A DNA stretch of 64,000 nucleotides from contig NC_043019.1 in the NCBI RefSeq assembly GCF_006345805.1, forward strand, positions 22,505,360-22,569,359, given 5' to 3'. Position numbers and translations under genes: made by a program. The stretch is from Octopus sinensis. Taxonomy: Eukaryota. Below, in pieces: positions 16,541 through 60,541 of the stretch (the first letter of the stretch is position 1; each line of letters begins with the position of its first letter). Under the pieces are notes generated by a model, which was not told the DNA's origin, did not search any database, and saw only the letters and a list, made by a program, of their open reading frames with translations.

Positions 16541-16636
16541 GAACGTTTTTTTTTAAATACTTAATAACGTTCTGTTTATCATTTATGCAGTCATTGTAAT
16601 TGTTAGAATATCTTGTTGTTGAGATAGGCTCTCTTT

Positions 16637-16719
16637 CTTTCCTGATGAGAAGATTGCATTTTACACCGTTTATTCCTTTGGAATAAAACCAATGTTGTCT
16701 TTGAAACATATGTCGAAAG
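16637..16719 (+). ncRNA. Type I hammerhead ribozyme motif with long stem II
   Basis: CTTTC-CTGATGA(16642-48)-54 nt stem II hairpin-GAAA(16703-06)-C ATAT G-TC|GAAAG. Stem I CTTTC/GAAAG is perfect, the stem III loop is palindromic, GUC cleavage triplet ends at 16714. The first stem II pair is G-U rather than G-C. Confidence 0.85.
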
Positions 16720-19700
16720 TAAAAGAATTTGAATAACATCTGTTTACTTATACTACACAAATTACTGCACATTAACCCGGAGTTTCTACCTTTGAATAGG
16801 TCGCTTCATCCGTGTTACTTGCGTGAATTTTGCAACCCTGGTAACTGTTTATTGAATTTTCCATGTTAACGGTAAACAAAGGATAATTCATTAATCCATT
16901 TATATATGTATATATATATATATATAAACAGAGGTATACAACGACAGGCTTCTTTCAGTTTCTGCCTACAAATCCATTCCCTAGGCTTTTACCCGCCCAG
17001 TACTATTGTAGAAGACAGTTGCCCAAGGTGGCACACACTGGGATTAAACCCAAAACTATGTGGTTTAAAAGAGAACTTCTTAACTACACAGCCATGTGAA
17101 AGAGCTTATGTCCCCATAACGTAGTGGTTCAGCAAAAATGATCAGAGTAAGTACCAGGCTTTAAAAAAAAAAAAGTACTCTTCAAGGCAATGCCCCAGTA
17201 TGGCCACAGTCCAATGGCTGAGACAAGTGAAAGATAAAAGACAACCGATTAAAAAATTTTGACAGCTGAGCAACCTCGTCAAAGATTTTTGCAATTAAAC
17301 TCTCTTTATACGTATGCATACATTTGTATATCTGTATACACACACACACACACACATGCACATGCACACACACACACATCTGTATGTGTGATAATAAATG
17401 TAGAATGAAAAGTAAGACCATAACCAAACATGTGACTAATATTAAAAAGACTAAATGGCACCAGCTATAAATATCTCTCCTACAGCATGAAAACAAATGG
17501 ATAACTTATGAGGTTGAAATCTGAAGATACAGTGCATGCCTGAATACATATGTATAAGCAAACATACACACACACACATACTCTTTTACTCTTTTACTTG
17601 TTTCAGTCATTTGACTGTGGCTATGCTGGAGCACCGCCTTTAGTCGAGCAAATTGACTCCAGGACTAATTCTTTGTAAGCCTAGTACTTATTCTGTCGGT
17701 CTCTTTTGCCGAACCACTAAGTTACGGGGACGTAACACACCAGCATCGGTTGTCAAGCGATGTCGGTGGGGGACAAACACAGACACACAAACGTAGACAC
17801 ACACACACACACATATACATACATACACACATATATATATATGTATATACATATATATGGCGGGTTTCTTTCAGTTTCCGTCTACCAAATCCACTCACAA
17901 GGCTTTGGTCGGCCCGAAGCAATAATAGAAGACATTTGCCTAAGGTGCAATGCAGTGGGACAGAACCTGGAACCATGTGGTTGGTAAGCAAGCTACTTAC
18001 CACACAGCCACTCCTATGTTCATATATATATTAACACATACATACACATGTATACATGAATACATATACACATGCATATATATGTTTGTGTGTGTACGTG
18101 TGCGTATGTGTGTATCGTGAATGTGTGCAGACACACACAAAGATGTATATAGATATAGATATAAATATGGTTGTGTGGTTAAGGCGCTTGCTATGCGACC
18201 ACATGGTTTCAGGTTCAGTCCCACTGCACAGCACATTGGGCAAGAGTCTTCAATTCAATGCCAGCAAGACCTGGAAAAAGAAGGCCTTCCATTATGGAAA
18301 CAATTTGGTGCAGTAAAATCCAAAAGTAAGGTGCAAAGGCAGAGCTGAAAAAGCAGAGATCCAAGAGGAGAGAAGCAGAAATGACAACCCAGGGTTGAGA
18401 GAACAGCACAGAAAAATTGCTGATGACCTATGCTCCATAGGAAGCAAAGGACTTAAGTTCACAACTGTGTGGTCACCTCATATTGGAATACAAGGATGGG
18501 AAGACAATTACAACATTGGAAAATTGTAGCCTACTTCATTTCAACGCACAAACATCATCATCATCATCATCATTTAACCTCCAGTTTCCATGCTGGCATG
18601 GGTTAGAACTGGCAAAAGCAGGGATCACACTAGCTTCCATAGTCTGTTTTAGCTTGGTTTCTATGGTCAGATGTCCTCTCTAACGCCAACCACTTTACAG
18701 AGTGTACTGGGTGCTTTTAACATGGCACCACCAACAGGGCTTTTTATATAGCACTATCACTAATGCTTTTTACATGGCACCAACATTAATGCTTTTTACG
18801 TGGCACTTTGGTTTTAGAATATCACATGTACTCACAAATGCACAAATATACACAATTTATTCAGATTTTTAAAGTTTGGCATAATAATATAATCTTTGAA
18901 AACAATCCATTCAGTCTTTTAGAGAAAACAGGTCTCTTAAGAATTCCGCTTCTGTTTTTTTTTTCCTTCTCTTCCATTCTCACCCTCCTTAAAGAAATTG
19001 GCTGCTGTGGTAGTGGTGGTAGGACGGGGAGAGAGTGATTGAATGGAACAATTTCACTTTCAGAGAATTTGACAATCAAAATGTCAAGGACATTTCCTGA
19101 CATTGTTGACTTCTAGTCAATTCATCCTACCACACCACAACTAACAGCTTAAAATGGATTCAACTGTTTTTCGATGAAATTGATACCAAGATTTATTAGA
19201 AATTAAAGAAAATTCAGAATATAAGAATACCAGACATAGATATACACGACACATACACATGTTCATTAAACATACATATGTGTAATAAGAAGTTTGCTTC
19301 CCAACCACATTGTTCCGGGTTCAGTCCCACTGTGTAGCACCTTGGGCAAGTGTCTTCTACTATAGCCTTGGGCCAACCAAAGCTTTGTGAGTGGATTTGG
19401 TAAATGGTAACTAGAAGCCCATATGTGCATTTGTGTGTATGTGACAACTGGTTTTGGTGTGTTTACATCTCTGTAACTTAGCAGTTTAGCAAAAGAGATC
19501 AATAGAATAAGTACCAGACTTTAAAAAAAAATAAAAATTCATCAAGGCAGTGCCCCAGCATGGTCTCAATCTAATGACCAAAACTAGTAAAAGATAAAAG
19601 ATATATTTTTTTTATTAATATTTAGCATAAGCAACAGTGACTCAGGGGCCAAGAAATTTATGTGTTAGCACTTACCAAACTAGTCACAAATCAATGTGTT

Positions 19701-47000: not shown

Positions 47001-48774
47001 GTTTAGCCCAAGGTCAACTGTGAGCGAGAAGATTGACGATCACAAGCACTCTGGTCATGACCACCCTGTTTTTTTAACTCTATCTAAAACTGCATAGAAC
47101 TGTGTCCTTCGACCCTTTCCTTAAAGCAGAAGAGTGCGATTTAAGAAAATAGTTGTTTTTTTTTTTATTCTCAGGTCAGCTTTAATCGAGTAAGATCTAC
47201 GACCACAAGGATTTCTCGCCGTGACAATCCTGTTCTTTTCGTATGTGCAGGGAAACCCTGTATGACAGGGTGTAATCTGAGGGTATATGGGCTATTATTT
47301 CTAGCATGCCGAGCGACTACGTAAAGACTGGTGGTGTGTCAACTACAACGTTCAGACGTACGTGCATGTTCTTTACTAAAAGAATGTGACCCAGTCTGTC
47401 TGTCTATAGATAGATAGATAGCCCAACTGATTTCAGATTCCAGGTAGTGAAGGGAGGCGTGGACGCACTGAGCAGTGCAAGTTGCCCGAGGGTCGCCCCT
47501 CGAGTTTAGGAGTCCAATGCTAACAACCTGCGTACGTTCAGTGTCGTTACCTAGTGATGGCAGAGCATTGTACTGCTCGGGAGCTTAAAATAGTTAGACG
47601 ATCCTACACACACACTCACACATACACACTTGTCAATCGCTCGATCAATCACTAAGGACGAAAAGTTACAAATGACAGGTGTTCAAAAATAAAATGTTCA
47701 CAAATAACTCCGAAGGTGAATCGTTGGCTGGACCATATATGCGTGTGTGTGTGTGTGTTTTAATCTCGAGTTATAACAAAAACAATTCTACATTAAAATA
47801 AAGGATTACTCAAATTTTGTAGAGTACATATTTATTATTCTTTTACAAAGAAATGTGTTGACTGACTTTGAAGTTTCGGCCTGTTAGCATGCATTTAGCT
47901 ATATATATATATAAGCACGAATTTATGTCTATATACACTCACTATAACGTATATACATTCATTCAACTATCTATACACACGTATCAATTTATATATCTAC
48001 ACACGTATATATACACTCAACTTTCTATCTATGCACAAACTATCTAATATTAATTATACGCACGCACTCACACACACACACATGTTAATCACAGTACCAA
48101 AAGCAACAACAAGACTAATATGAAGAACGAAGTATAAACAGCCAGTCGGGTAACTGACGATGAAGCTTCTTGTGTGATGGCTCGACCTGTTAGAAATAGC
48201 AGCCAAATATATCTCAAATCATAGTCTACAGCCTAAGGAAAAGAAATGACACACTTGACCATGTCAGTCAGTCCTACACACACCCTTCAATAGACAGGAT
48301 GATCGTGATTGGAGTGTTGGAATGTTTTTGTGCATAGGTGTTTTCTAATCTGGATTGACCTGGGTTTAAACAACACCAACAATAACGAGGGAGCCATCGG
48401 GTGGTCACTCGACCTGCTAGAAATAGCAGGCAAACAGTCCTCAATTCGCACCGCATCGTTTTCTTTCTTTTGTTTTTTTTTAAAAAAGAAACTACATTGG
48501 ATCGTGTCGGATGCCGCTTAGAAAACTATATAAGAAATGATGGTCCAGGCTAGAATACTTTTGCTCAGGGTTTGTTCTGTCGCGACTGACTTGGGGCTAA
48601 ATGCCAAAACATCAACCGTCACATTGTCATCTCCTCTTCTTATCCTTCATCCTCATCCAGACATCCAAACAAAGATACAATGGAAGGGGTTGCAATGAGG
48701 AAGGGTAAGTCATGAGAGTTAGGGTGGGTGAAGAAGAAAAAAAAGCGAGAGGTTCAAGAGATTTGCTTGCTTAC

Positions 48775-48950
48775 CTTTTCAAATGCGCCAGCCTTGCTTC
48801 CTCACTTTCAATGTAGTCTTTGAGTAGAATCGCTATCTCCTGTTCAGTTTGTAGTGTCTTTTCGAGTTCCACCATAGCTGTGAAAACCTCCGATCGAACC
48901 GTGTGTAGGGCGACCACAAGACACAGGCAGACATGTGCCAGAAGATGCAT
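48775..48950 (-). CDS. P4HA: Prolyl 4-hydroxylase alpha subunit, first coding exon (signal peptide and N-terminal domain)
   Basis: Minus-strand translation from ATG at 48950: MHLLAHVCLCLVVALHTVRS-EVFTAMVELEKTLQTEQEIAILLKDYIESEEARLAHLK. Hydrophobic signal peptide followed by a typical P4HA N-terminus (EvFTA..L..L...E......LKDYI..EE.RL). 176 bp, ends AG|GTAAGC (phase 2). Not in the ORF track. Confidence 0.92.
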
Positions 48951-52896: not shown

Positions 52897-53964
52897 TATC
52901 CATTGGAATCTGACAAGTCGTCTATAAAGCTAAGTGGTTGTAGAGGGACAAACAGAGATATACACACATGTATGTATACATATATATGACGGGCTTCTTT
53001 CAGTTTCCACTCACAAGGCTTTGGACAGCCCAAGGTTATAGTAGAAGATACTTGCCATGCAGTGGGTCTGAACCCAGAACCACATGGTTGGGCCACCAAC
53101 ATCTTGCCACACCTGTGCCTATATTAATCCTGGAAGTTCTGCAATACCAGGCCAACCTGTGGCATAGGTGGAGCAAGCCTCTAACTTTTCATCTCTTTCT
53201 AAACATCAGTTTAATAGGGACTGTATCAGAGATTAAGCTGACAAGAATCAAATATTATTAGGAATTGTACAAAAAAATTGTTAAACTATTTTGTATAGGT
53301 GCAGGAGTGGCTGTGTGGTAAGTAGCTTGCTTACCAACCACATGGTTCCGGGTTCAGTCCCACTGGATGGCATCTTGGGGAAGTGTCTTCTACTATAGCC
53401 TCAGGCTGACAAACGCCTTGAATGGATTTGGTAGACAGAAACTGAAAGAAGCCCATTGTATATATGTGTATATAAATATATATATATATGTGTGTGTGTA
53501 TGTTTGCGTGTCCATGTTTGTCCCCCTAGCATTGCTTAACAACTGATGCTGGTGTGTTTATGTCCCCATAACTTAGCGGTTCAGCAAAAGAGACTGATAG
53601 AATAAGTACTGGGCTTACAAAGAATATGTCCTGGGCTCGATTTGCTCGACTAAAGGCGGTACTCCAGCATGGCCGCAGTCAAATGACTGAAACAAGTTGA
53701 AGAGTATCTTGTAGAAGTATAACCAATTTATTGTAGATAGATTTTTTAAAAATCTTATATGGATTCCGATTGAGAACTATTGCTCTAAACCATCAATATG
53801 TCTCATTCCACCCTGCAAGTGGCTGCTCTGTGTGGTGAGCATACTTTGCACACCCTATGCTACACTACTTCCGTAATGCCTTTGATCATGGCAAGACTGG
53901 CCCAGGGTTAAACTAAGATGATGAATACACCAGCATCAGTTGTCAAGCGATGTTGGGGGGACAA

Positions 53965-53991
<27 letters not shown>

Positions 53992-53995
<4 letters not shown>

Positions 53996-54397
53996 AGTAA
54001 ATGAAAGAATGGAGTCGAACAACGATTTTAACAAAATTCCTTTACTCTCGACATATGTTTCGAAGACTGCATATTCTTAATTCCGAAGGAATAAAGGGTG
54101 CATTATGCCGCCTTCTCATCAGGAAAGACTGAGAAGGCGGCATAATGCACCCTTTATTCCTTCGGAATTAAGAATATGCAGTCTTCGAAACATATGTCGA
54201 GAGTAAAGGAATTTTGTTAAAATCGTTGTTCGACTCCATTCTTTCATTTACTTATAGTTAAAAAAAACACAAATTTCCACACGAGAACACGGGATTTCTG
54301 CCCTTGGCATCTAGCTTCAACTGTGTTTTTTGACGTGAATTTGCTACCCAGGTATCGGTTAACCGAATTATCCATACTAGGATAATTCATTCACCTA

Positions 54398-54400
<3 letters not shown>
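53992..54400 (+). mobile_element. Hammerhead-bearing Penelope-like/retrozyme remnant inserted in the (TA)n tract of a SINE
   Basis: 127 bp inverted arms with no mismatch seen (53992-54118 and 54130-54256), 11 nt spacer, then a tail sharing CGTGAATTT..GC.ACCC.GGTA and GGATAATTCATT with 16810-16895. The host SINE resumes after the TA run. Confidence 0.75.
54045..54127 (-). ncRNA. Type I hammerhead ribozyme motif with long stem II
   Basis: Minus strand reads CTTTC-CTGATGA-GAAGGCGGCATA...ATTCC TTC GGAAT...TATGCAGTCTTC-GAAA-C ATAT G-TC|GAGAG. All core nucleotides canonical; same family as 16637-16719. Confidence 0.87.
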
Positions 54401-54447
<47 letters not shown>

Positions 54448-55643
54448 CATACACACATATATACGACGGGCTTCTTTCAGTTTCTGTCTACCAAATTCAC
54501 TGACAAGGCTTTGGTTCGCCTGAGGCTATAGTAGAAGACACTTGCCCAAGGTGCCACGCAGTGGTACTGAACGTGGAACCATGCAGTTCATAAACAAGCT
54601 ACTAACCTCACAGCCACTCCTACACCTTAAATCTAGTGAAATAATGTTTTGATCATAAATTAACATACAAATTTTGATGGAAGACGGTTTTAATTTAAAT
54701 CGCTTTAAAGCAAGGAATTTGTACTATAGAACCAAATGTGGTCTCAGCTTGGTATCAAAAGCATTAATCAAGGTCTCCATCGTAACAGCATAAATTGTTC
54801 TTAATTATTCAAATTGGATATTTAATCTTTGAAATTGGTACATCAGTTCTCTTTTAATTACCTTAGTCCTCTGATAATCCTCTATAGTTAATCTAATACA
54901 AACAATTATTCTTACTTAAAGATACTAATACCACCTTAACACCTTCAGTGTTACACTCAAAGCTGTTTAACCCTTTTGATTCCAATTCACCTGAGACTGT
55001 CTTTGGTTCTATGATACAAACTTCCTGTGTAAAGTGATTTGAATTAAAAACCTCCCTTGAAAATGTTAATTTATGTTTCAAATACCAACTTAACCCTTTC
55101 GATACGTTACCAACCTGGCTGAAACCACCCCTGGTTCTGTTGTACAAATGTCTTGTTTTCATAAGTTTTGAATTAAAATCTTCCACCAAACCTTAGTCAC
55201 AATTTATGTTCCTAACACCAGCTTAATGATAACTAAGTTATTATACTAAATTTTTTGTTATATTTAAAAATTGATTGAAAGAAACACAGGACATCTCAAA
55301 ATAAATACAGTAACAAAAGGGTTAATAATGGTTTCAAATTTTGGCACCAGGCTAGCAATTTGGGGGATGGTCCATTACATCAACCCTATAGTTCAACTGG
55401 TCCTTTTTTTTATTGATCCCCAAAAGGATGAAATGCAAAGTCAATCTCAGCAGAGTTTGAACTCAAAATCTGAAGGTGACATTGACACAGGTATGGCTGT
55501 CTGGTGAAAAGCTTGCTTCCAAACCAAATGGTTCTGGGTTCTGTCCCACTGTGTGGCAAATGTCTTCTACTATAGCCTTGGGCTGACCAAAGCCTTATGA
55601 GATAATTTGGTAGATGGAAACTGAAAGAAGCCCTTTGTATGTG

Positions 55644-58976: not shown

Positions 58977-60039
58977 TTTAAAACGATGTACAAGCATTCA
59001 GCTCTGAATGTACTGCATCTTACAGCAAAAATGGTTGTACACTGATGTAGTTGATTACATGATTATTGTTGCTTTGTCATACTTTTTATATATACATATG
59101 GTTCTGGGTTCAGTCCCTCTGAACAGCTCTTTCGGCAAGTGTTTTCTACTATGGCCTCGGGCCTACCTCAGTGTTGTGAGTGAATTTGGTAGATGGAAAT
59201 TGAATGAATCTCATCATACCTCTGTGTGCATGTGGGTGTTTGTGTGTGTGTCTTTGTGTCTGTTGGTACCTCCACCACTTGATGAATGGTACTTGTGTGT
59301 TTACATTCATGCAACTTAGCAGTTTGGCAAAAAAGAACCGATAGAATAAGTACCAAGCTTTAAAAAACAAGTACTTGGGTCTATTCATTCAACTAAAAAA
59401 TTCTTCAAGGTGGTGCCCCAGCATGGCCACAGTCTAATGACTGAAACAAATAAAAAAAAAGAGATGTGTGTGTGTTAACCAGAGAAGTGACCTTTTAGAG
59501 CTGGATTTCATGTTACTACTTCACAGTTTGCATCTTTGGGAGTAGGCCTGAGTTTGGCGAAGTTAAGCAGAATATTTATGTTGTGAAAATTGAGTAATTT
59601 AAACTGGGTTGCAGACCAGACTCTTGCCATCGAAATCTTAGCTTTGTAATTTCTCTAGTGTTCACCCCCACCCCCCGCTTCTGCCTTGTTTTCTGCTTAA
59701 TCAAGGCCAGCCGGCTTAGATAAAATGTCAGCGTTGCACCCAATTGAATCAAATTTGAGCAAACAAAGACAAGAAAAAGAAAAGGAAAGACGTGGAGGGG
59801 ACGGAAGAAGTGAAGTGAAAGAAAGCTAGACTTGAATGAATAGTAATGAAGAGGGAAGGGACTTCAACAGGTTGTGAGATAAGAAAGTATTGAAGTTTAG
59901 CGATTGTCTTCTTATCAACTTGGTTTTCTTGTGATTTTTTGATGGAAGAAGTAGGGGTGTGCATGTGAGATATTTTGTGGTTGTAGCCACCTCATTAATG
60001 CCTTCGTATGAATGTGTATAAGGGTATCTAAGCATGGAA

Positions 60040-60541
60040 GAGCCATAAAAGTTACAGATACTGGTGAAGGAGAGTCGAAAATGGTTTTATTTTTATTTTT
60101 TTAATTATGTAAATTATTTTTTAAAATAATTTGTGACAGTTGATGGCCAATGGTATCTGTTTGTTACAGGTTTCCAGTGTGCCAGTTACAGTTTCATTGA
60201 TATTTTTTGGTCATAATAAGGGAGCATATATAACTTGGTACAGAGCAAATATCTCAAGGGACTTTGTTTGTAAAGCACTGCTTTTTCTCTCAGATTACTA
60301 CCTGGAGCCATAAAAGTTACAGATACTGGTGAAGGAGAGTCGGGTAAATTGTTATTTTTAAAAATAATTTGTGACAGTTGATGGCCAATGGTATCTGTTT
60401 GTTACAGGTTTCCAGTGTGCCAATTACAGTTTCATTGATATTTCTGGTCATAATAAGGGAGTATATATAACTTGGTGTAGAGCAAATATCTCAAGGGATT
60501 TTGTTTGCAAAGCACTGCTTTTCCTCTCAGATTACTACCTG
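60040..60541. repeat. Diverged tandem duplication of about 240-265 bp
   Basis: GAGCCATAAAAGTTACAGATACTGGTGAAGGAGAGTCG at 60040 and 60305; both units end CTCTCAGATTACTACC. Confidence 0.9.

What the first reader, a model, noticed from the sequence alone, without database searches (positions are those of the whole stretch)
53992..54400. Young 127 bp fold-back in which only the inverted arm keeps a complete ribozyme
No mismatch was seen between the arms, implying a recent insertion. The minus-strand arm has the full CTTTC-CTGATGA core, while the direct copy begins inside the CUGAUGA box (..ACTGAGAAGG). The junction therefore falls at the ribozyme 5' boundary. The insertion splits a SINE at its internal (TA)n tract, so it is younger than that SINE. 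It lies about 5 kb upstream of the P4HA start codon.
Basis: partly seen in the sequence, partly recalled or inferred. Interest (0 to 1): 0.7.

Follow-up and report, generated by a model that had tools for sequence, protein, structure and literature searches.

The report
Truncated Penelope end, ordinary fold-back
This perfect 127-base hairpin is real and is the cut-short end of an abundant Penelope-like jumping gene inserted head-to-head with its own inverted copy, a known layout in which the break at the predicted ribozyme is likely chance, although the way the two arms pair up across the family suggests that one RNA was likely copied twice from two fixed start points.

Summary
In detail: arms 53992-54118 and 54130-54256 are 127/127 complementary, only the minus-strand arm has a whole hammerhead core, a SINE-like repeat is split at its (TA)n tract, and the P4HA ATG lies 5,042 nt away. 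The interpretation mostly does not. The 409-nt insert is the 3' end (pLTR plus 144-nt tail) of a high-copy, Hydra-like Penelope-like retroelement with an RT/GIY-YIG ORF. Inverted arms are the family norm (61 of 90 copies). Junctions are not enriched at the ribozyme 5' boundary (3 of 41 against 5.1 expected; 11 of 87 against 10.8), and 'only the inverted arm complete' occurs in 28 of 92. Youth is unproven: the arms are unusually perfect (P about 1.5%), but the tail carries an average load of rare variants, one unique in the genome. Read data could not test the junction. Two family patterns are worth keeping: each inverted pair has one tailed and one tail-less arm (107 of 109, none symmetric), and both arms break at nearly the same place more often than chance (21 of 92 against 6). 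Both point to two primings on one RNA. The scan reached the Penelope reading before on other octopus-type DNA.

The parts
53992..54129 (-). Inverted, tail-less, 5'-truncated pLTR copy (family positions -7 to +130, C3 of the core = 0); includes the 11-nt loop of the hairpin
   Evidence: other family copies carry the same bases upstream of the core
54045..54127 (-). Predicted type I hammerhead: 5-bp stem I, CUGAUGA, extended stem II (6 bp closing a 42-nt structured insert), GAAA, 2-bp stem III with palindromic loop, GUC site with C17 at 54050
   Evidence: no Rfam hammerhead hit; activity untested
54130..54256 (+). Direct pLTR copy from +4 to +130; lacks stem I 5' strand and C3-A6 of the core
54257..54400 (+). 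144-nt tail, present on the direct arm only; in a near-complete copy (L050) it is the stretch between pLTR and ORF, ending about 53 nt before the ATG
53921..53991 (-). 3' part of the split SINE-like repeat, ending in its (CA)n(TA)n tract
   Evidence: the label SINE rests on dispersal and recalled A/B-box-like head motifs
54401..54627 (-). 5' part of the split SINE-like repeat, starting with the rest of the (TA)n tract
48773..48950 (-). First coding exon of a prolyl 4-hydroxylase alpha gene (context only)
   Evidence: PF08336 weak hit at this exon (E 1.2) and strong hits at two downstream exons of the window (E 1e-5 and 2e-8); signal-peptide-like start

Best explanation
The 409-nt insert is the truncated 3' end of an abundant Penelope-like retroelement joined head-to-head to an inverted copy of itself inside a (TA)n tract, and it likely arose when both ends of the cut target primed reverse transcription at two fixed sites and the two incomplete copies were joined at a point unrelated to the predicted ribozyme. 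Shown: family identity, RT and GIY-YIG-type ORF upstream of the same end in longer copies, fixed outer ends (+125-130 and about +275), TA flanks, dispersed inner junctions with mostly 0-4 nt overlap, strict tail/no-tail pairing. Inferred: the element's nuclease nicks both strands in (TA)n; one 3' end primes at the tail end and the other at the pLTR end, probably on the same uncleaved RNA; the tail-primed enzyme recopies the region already copied (strand displacement, no RNase H; recalled property); both stop early, often near the same place, and the cDNA ends are joined by end-joining. Here one stopped at -7 and the other at +4. The copy is predicted to be inert: it has no ORF, and a read-through RNA would pair arm with arm instead of folding the ribozyme.
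For: Family size: 3397 candidates, 40 scored at 93-97% identity besides itself; 164 and 337 exact end motifs. ORF: RT motifs and C-terminal YIG nuclease in longer copies that end in the same module; 124 protein relatives at E <= 1e-10, and 64 of 64 near-full-length ones carry DK[TS]. Inverted arm in 61 of 90 tail-selected copies, outer end at +105 to +152, mostly +125 to +130; 58 of 62 such outer ends abut TA repeats. Pairing: 0 of 90 tailed copies have a tailed inverted partner; 46 of 48 partners of tail-less ends are tailed, 0 tail-less, 2 unclear. Break points within 15 nt of each other in 21 of 92 junctions against 6.1 by permutation (0 of 20000), 13 of 76 against 4.5 after dropping overlaps over 4 nt, and significant in both samples separately. 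No enrichment at core or cleavage site. Literature: inverted 5'-truncated copy plus tail is a described PLE layout (PMC8557442; PMC3846280). A purified PLE protein cuts and extends both strands, starts at two internal RNA sites that delimit the tail, and uses uncleaved RNA (PMC11167929). Hammerhead helices have near-zero pairing probability in a two-arm transcript.
Against: The single-RNA step is inference from genomic patterns only. 71 of 92 junctions have unrelated break points, which fits two RNAs equally well. The side with the longer arm among near-symmetric junctions is only weakly biased (10 tail-less, 5 tailed, 6 ties). 29 of 90 tailed copies and 22 of 70 tail-less ends show no adjacent partner in the DNA fetched. 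Samples were chosen by exact end motifs and from the first contigs listed (90 of 164, 70 of 337). Pfam gave no significant hit for the ORF pieces and PDB none, so RT and nuclease are assigned by motifs and homologues. The Hydra-clade CxCX5C linker is absent (0 of 17 nuclease stretches in 16 loci).
Confidence: 0.85

Rival explanations
1. Snap-back self-priming: one cDNA (or an antisense template, as hypothesised for Adineta Penelopes) folds back at its end and copies itself, and the nuclease then resolves the hairpin at the TA-like site at +130, giving the tail-less arm.
For: Excess of near-symmetric junctions (21 of 92), this copy among that class (-7/+4); several sit on local palindromes with 6-13 nt overlap; proposed in PMC3846280.
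Against: 36 of 92 junctions have no duplicated sequence at all and most others are far from symmetric. In this copy the tail-less arm reaches further upstream, so it cannot be a copy of the tailed arm, and the tailed arm cannot be a copy of the tail-less one.
Confidence: 0.15
2. The junction is set by the ribozyme 5' boundary: structure or processing at the hammerhead makes the enzyme stop or switch there, leaving one active ribozyme.
For: In this copy both break points lie within 7 nt of C3.
Against: No enrichment in 92 other junctions. A hammerhead cuts at +72, not at +4. All four complete/incomplete combinations occur (18, 28, 8, 38).
Confidence: 0.03
3. The palindrome is real but not very young; its arms were made identical later by gene conversion or by assembly polishing, or are perfect by chance.
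For: Tail with 3 rare variants, one unique (1 against 793); at the tail's rate zero arm mismatches has P about 0.002; a CpG-type change at 54227 is shared by both arms.
Against: No family-wide conversion signal: short-loop pairs share fewer rare variants than long-loop pairs (11 of 93 against 32 of 146, Fisher p 0.057). Another copy (L168) has the same 110-nt arm sequence including 54227T. A young copy of a slightly aged, unassembled source fits as well.
Confidence: 0.4
4. Assembly fold-back artefact.
For: Arms are 100% identical, which chimeric long reads can also produce.
Against: The loop holds family sequence absent from the direct arm; the inverted arm ends at the family's fixed +130 site; both flanks return to colinear halves of one SINE. 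An artefact would produce none of these.
Confidence: 0.03
5. Regulatory element for P4HA (hairpin or ribozyme acting on its transcript).
For: The complete motif is on the P4HA strand, 5 kb upstream of the ATG.
Against: No transcript evidence was obtained; the motif is predicted not to fold in a two-arm transcript; the element is a frequent repeat, with a second, older relative in the same window.
Confidence: 0.03

Closest known systems
Complex insertions of endonuclease-positive Penelope-like elements: inverted 5'-truncated pLTR plus one-sided tail (PMC8557442 Fig. 2 legend; PMC3846280)
   Same: Head-to-head inverted truncated copy, tail on one arm, hammerhead motif in the pLTR, tail equal to sequence between pLTR and ORF start.
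   Different: Tail is 144 nt rather than 30-40 nt; the strict tail/no-tail pairing and correlated break points are counted here.
Hydra clade, including Hydra-1_Obim and Penelope-13_HM (PMC8557442 section 11 and supplements)
   Same: C-terminal YIG nuclease without CCHH, RW[F/K] and DKT motifs, CxxC and CxH near the end, (TA)n targets, canonical hammerhead core; Penelope-13_HM is listed with an inverted 5'-truncated copy.
   Different: CxCX5C linker absent, replaced by an Asn-rich stretch; stem II insert of 42 nt against loops of 3-10 nt in the published Hydra table; hammerhead and protein differ from Hydra-1_Obim (compared by eye), so a different family.
Poseidon element of Anolis carolinensis in vitro (PMC11167929)
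   Same: Two internal start sites delimit the tail; both target strands are cut and extended; uncleaved RNA is the template.
   Different: There the RNA start site is not homologous to the target; here both ends finish in a TA-like motif that runs into the target (TA)n.
L1 twin priming (recalled; abstract start of PMC2837659)
   Same: Two target ends prime on one RNA, giving an inverted and a direct piece joined with short overlap.
   Different: L1 arms do not duplicate sequence and the second site is variable (recalled); here 56 of 92 pairs duplicate sequence and the second site is fixed.
Minimal type I hammerheads of PLEs and non-LTR retrozymes (PMC4209133; 10.64898/2026.07.22.740005)
   Same: Short palindromic stem III, predicted to need a dimer; pairs on opposite strands 100-700 bp apart were noted in Schistosoma.
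   Different: Not a tandem ORF-less array; these pieces are truncated ends of a coding element.

Membership tests
EN+ Penelope-like elements | Single ORF with RT and GIY-YIG nuclease linked to this end module | tested here: met
   Longer copies carry RT motifs and a C-terminal YIG nuclease upstream of the same module; by motifs and homologues, not by Pfam. No single uninterrupted full-length ORF was seen in 16 loci.
EN+ Penelope-like elements | pLTR with hammerhead motif, repeated in partial tandem before the ORF | tested here: met
   L050 has pLTR plus tail before the ORF start and again after its end; motif.
EN+ Penelope-like elements | Inverted 5'-truncated copy at the 5' end | tested here: met
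   61 of 90 copies.
EN+ Penelope-like elements | One-sided tail extension | tested here: met
   Present on one arm only; 144 nt rather than 30-40 nt.
Hydra clade | RWK-type and DKT motifs, C-terminal nuclease without CCHH, CxxC and CxH near the end | tested here: met
   RWF and SDKT in L050, CxxC and CxH in the nuclease; layout matches the published alignment by eye.
Hydra clade | (TA)n insertion preference | tested here: met
   58 of 62 inverted-arm outer ends abut TA repeats; tail ends are likewise followed by TA.
Hydra clade | CxCX5C linker before the nuclease | tested here: not met
   0 of 17 nuclease stretches in 16 loci have CxC within 230 aa upstream, against 62 of 64 near-full-length database relatives. 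Hence 'Hydra-like', not filed as Hydra.
Hydra clade | RT phylogeny inside the clade | not tested
   No tree with the named reference proteins was built.
Type I hammerhead ribozyme | CUGAUGA, GAAA and NUH core closed by stems I-III | tested here: met
   Constrained fold -15.0 against unconstrained -17.7 kcal/mol; 97.7% of cells paired, 3 pairs with two-sided changes in 10 related copies (weak because the copies are related); Rfam gave no hammerhead hit.
Type I hammerhead ribozyme | Self-cleavage | not testable with these tools
   Needs an in vitro assay.
Non-LTR retrozyme | Tandem ORF-less units, each with a hammerhead | tested here: not met
   Copies are inverted pairs or single truncated ends, and longer ones run into an ORF.

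The most novel reading that the evidence does not exclude
Inverted Penelope insertions are made by a two-start, one-template reaction: a nuclease/RT pair primes both target ends on a single uncleaved RNA at two fixed sites 144 nt apart, and the second enzyme recopies the first one's stretch. This would explain at once the one-sided tail, the duplicated arms and the correlated break points, and this linker-less, Asn-rich Hydra-like family would still find (TA)n through RNA-target TA pairing rather than through the zinc linker.
Probability: 0.4. Interest if true: 0.55.

Novelty: new member of a known kind. Interest (0 to 1): 0.24.

Why it matters
The locus itself is one ordinary, probably inert copy among very many. 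Its value is as an entry to an abundant family whose insertions allow statistics on how Penelope-like elements make inverted ends, which remains an open mechanistic question. The strict pairing of ends and the coupled break points give a direct, testable prediction (two marked RNAs in vitro). The missing linker despite TA targeting bears on the suggested role of that linker.

Tried and rejected
Read support: 24 runs were listed. Contigs of 4 runs laid on 53600-54800 were swamped by repeats; the unique flanks were present unchanged in two runs and no contig bridged the insert. On the 50-nt junction nothing was laid in 4 of 4 runs, including the best holder; the tool says this can be false, so it shows neither presence nor absence. 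Presence/absence polymorphism is therefore untested. The apparent pile-up of hits at query position 12 is a query-edge effect: 28 of 29 top copies run on upstream through the core region; those copies were selected for length and were not used for junction statistics. Gene conversion between arms: no family signal. Junctions at the cleavage site: no excess. Rfam: only a U2 copy at gathering score; miRNA-type hairpin hits below gathering score at E <= 10. Pfam and PDB: nothing significant. Rows dropped before the 92-junction count: 10 of 61 and 6 of 48 pairs with more than 20 nt between the arms, one duplicate, and this copy. Literature searches for the single-RNA model listed no paper stating it for Penelope elements; only listings were seen for most hits, subscription papers are not covered, and the supplements of PMC11167929 and of the bioRxiv preprint were not seen. 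The look-up of earlier findings by place and by sequence returned nothing.

Full report
Observation. The window has two 127-nt arms at 53992-54118 and 54130-54256 that are fully complementary, with 11 nt between them. On the minus strand the left arm reads as a type I hammerhead: 5-bp stem I, CUGAUGA with C3 at 54122, a 6-bp stem II closing a structured 42-nt insert, GAAA, a 2-bp stem III with a palindromic loop and a GUC site at 54050. This fold costs 2.7 kcal/mol over the unconstrained minimum, and 97.7% of its cells pair across 10 related copies, with 3 two-sided changes (weak, as the copies are kin). Rfam does not list it as a hammerhead at either threshold. With C3 as position 0, the inverted arm covers +130 to -7 and so includes the loop; the direct arm starts at +4 and continues 144 nt past +130 to 54400. 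Both flanks are halves of one SINE-like repeat that are colinear in 14 other window copies. The P4HA ATG is at 48950 on the minus strand, 5,042 nt away.

What it is. The genome (2.72 Gb; octopus-like by its repeats, which is my recalled reading) holds thousands of candidates for this sequence. One copy runs upstream into the end of an ORF with a YIG-type nuclease, which has at least 150 scored matches. Sixteen longer loci show RT motifs, SDKT, RWF and terminal CxxC/CxH motifs, and L050 shows pLTR plus tail just before the ORF start and again after the ORF. The protein has 124 relatives at E <= 1e-10, and the near-full-length ones carry Hydra-type motifs. Pfam and PDB gave nothing significant. 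Craig et al. (PMC8557442; passages, section 11 and parts of the supplement) describe inverted 5'-truncated copies and one-sided 30-40-bp tails as typical of Penelope-like elements and define the Hydra clade, with (TA)n targets, hammerheads and a CxCX5C linker. The linker is missing here (0 of 17 stretches; present in 62 of 64 relatives) and an Asn-rich stretch lies in its place, so I call the family Hydra-like. It differs from Hydra-1_Obim by eye. Asn-rich inserts were described in Adineta Penelopes (PMC3846280, passages).

Is the junction special? I took 90 of 164 copies with an exact tail-end motif and 70 of 337 with an exact tail-less end next to TA. 61 of 90 have an inverted partner ending near +125 to +130. 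In 92 directly abutting junctions, direct starts fall within 12 nt of C3 in 3 of 41 cases in range (5.1 expected) and inverted ends in 11 of 87 (10.8 expected); the cleavage site shows no excess either. The ribozyme is whole in the inverted arm only in 28, in the direct arm only in 8, in both in 18 and in neither in 38. Overlap at the junction is 0-4 nt in 49 of 92. The break at the core in this copy is therefore what chance gives.

Is it young? Arms of 46 pairs differ at 196 of 5,890 positions, so zero mismatches in 127 nt has about 1.5% probability, and this is the longest perfect pair in that sample. But its tail has three rare variants (54311, 54322, 54330), equal to the family mean of 2.0%, and the 54311 variant occurs once in the genome against 793 copies with the usual bases. 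One CpG-type change (54227) is in both arms and also in an identical arm elsewhere. Short-loop pairs show no sign of conversion. A young copy of an aged source, chance among many copies, and later homogenisation all remain open. Read data did not settle reality or polymorphism. An artefact is still unlikely, because the loop is family sequence missing from the other arm, the inverted arm ends at the family's fixed site, and the flanks rejoin one SINE.

How it likely formed. Two patterns constrain the mechanism. First, pairing is strict: no tailed copy of 90 has a tailed inverted partner, and 46 of 48 partners of tail-less ends are tailed, none tail-less; either arm can be the long one. Second, the two arms break within 15 nt of each other in 21 of 92 junctions against 6.1 by permutation, also after removing palindromic overlaps and in each sample alone; this copy (-7/+4) is of that class. 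Frangieh et al. (PMC11167929; parts 1-2 of 4) showed in vitro that a Penelope protein cuts and extends both target strands, starts at two internal RNA sites that delimit the tail, and does not need ribozyme cleavage. Taken together, the simplest model is that both target ends prime on one uncleaved RNA, one at each site, that the tail-primed enzyme recopies the pLTR, and that the two cDNAs are end-joined where they stop. The single-template step is inferred; most junctions do not distinguish one RNA from two. Snap-back self-priming (hypothesised in PMC3846280) explains symmetric junctions but not the 36 of 92 without duplication, nor this copy, whose tail-less arm reaches further upstream.

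Function. The insert has no ORF. In a transcript through both arms the hammerhead helices have essentially zero probability, and motifs with such a short stem III are reported to need a dimer and to cleave weakly (PMC4209133, passages). It is not a tandem retrozyme (10.64898/2026.07.22.740005, part 1 of 5). Nothing ties it to P4HA beyond distance and strand.

Verdict. Real in the assembly and well explained: a truncated head-to-head end of a Hydra-like Penelope element, a known layout that earlier notes of this scan also reached for other loci (unchecked notes, not counted as support). The ribozyme-boundary idea fails its own test. Interest 0.24. What deserves follow-up is the family-level evidence for two primings on one RNA (probability about 0.4, interest about 0.55 if true); five paper searches did not list a paper stating it, within the limits of that library.

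Noticed in passing
window 53114-53289 (-): U2 snRNA-like copy above Rfam's gathering score, with a decayed 5' end; probably a pseudogene.
   Followed up: no
window 16630-16900 (+): Older, 67-80% identical relative of the same end module with whole hammerhead core and tail, no inverted arm, ending in (TA)n.
   Followed up: partly
L043-L058, about 160 aa before the nuclease: Asn-rich stretch (19-28% N) in place of the CxCX5C linker in all 16 loci, although the family targets (TA)n.
   Followed up: partly
L050 4399-4346 (-); tail ends of L060, L077, L080: A few copies extend about 13 nt past the usual tail end to a further TA-like motif, suggesting a third start site; all ends finish in TA-like sequence.
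   Followed up: no
window 54270-54345 (+): The tail is predicted to fold into a long bulged hairpin followed by a second hairpin just before its end; earlier notes mention a shared tail hairpin.
   Followed up: no
window about 60020-60160 and 60290-60540: A segment of about 230 nt appears duplicated in tandem, seen by eye.
   Followed up: no
L055 231-1235 (+): Intronless 335-aa ORF that looks like a biogenic-amine GPCR, 1.1 kb from an inverted family copy (label recalled).
   Followed up: no
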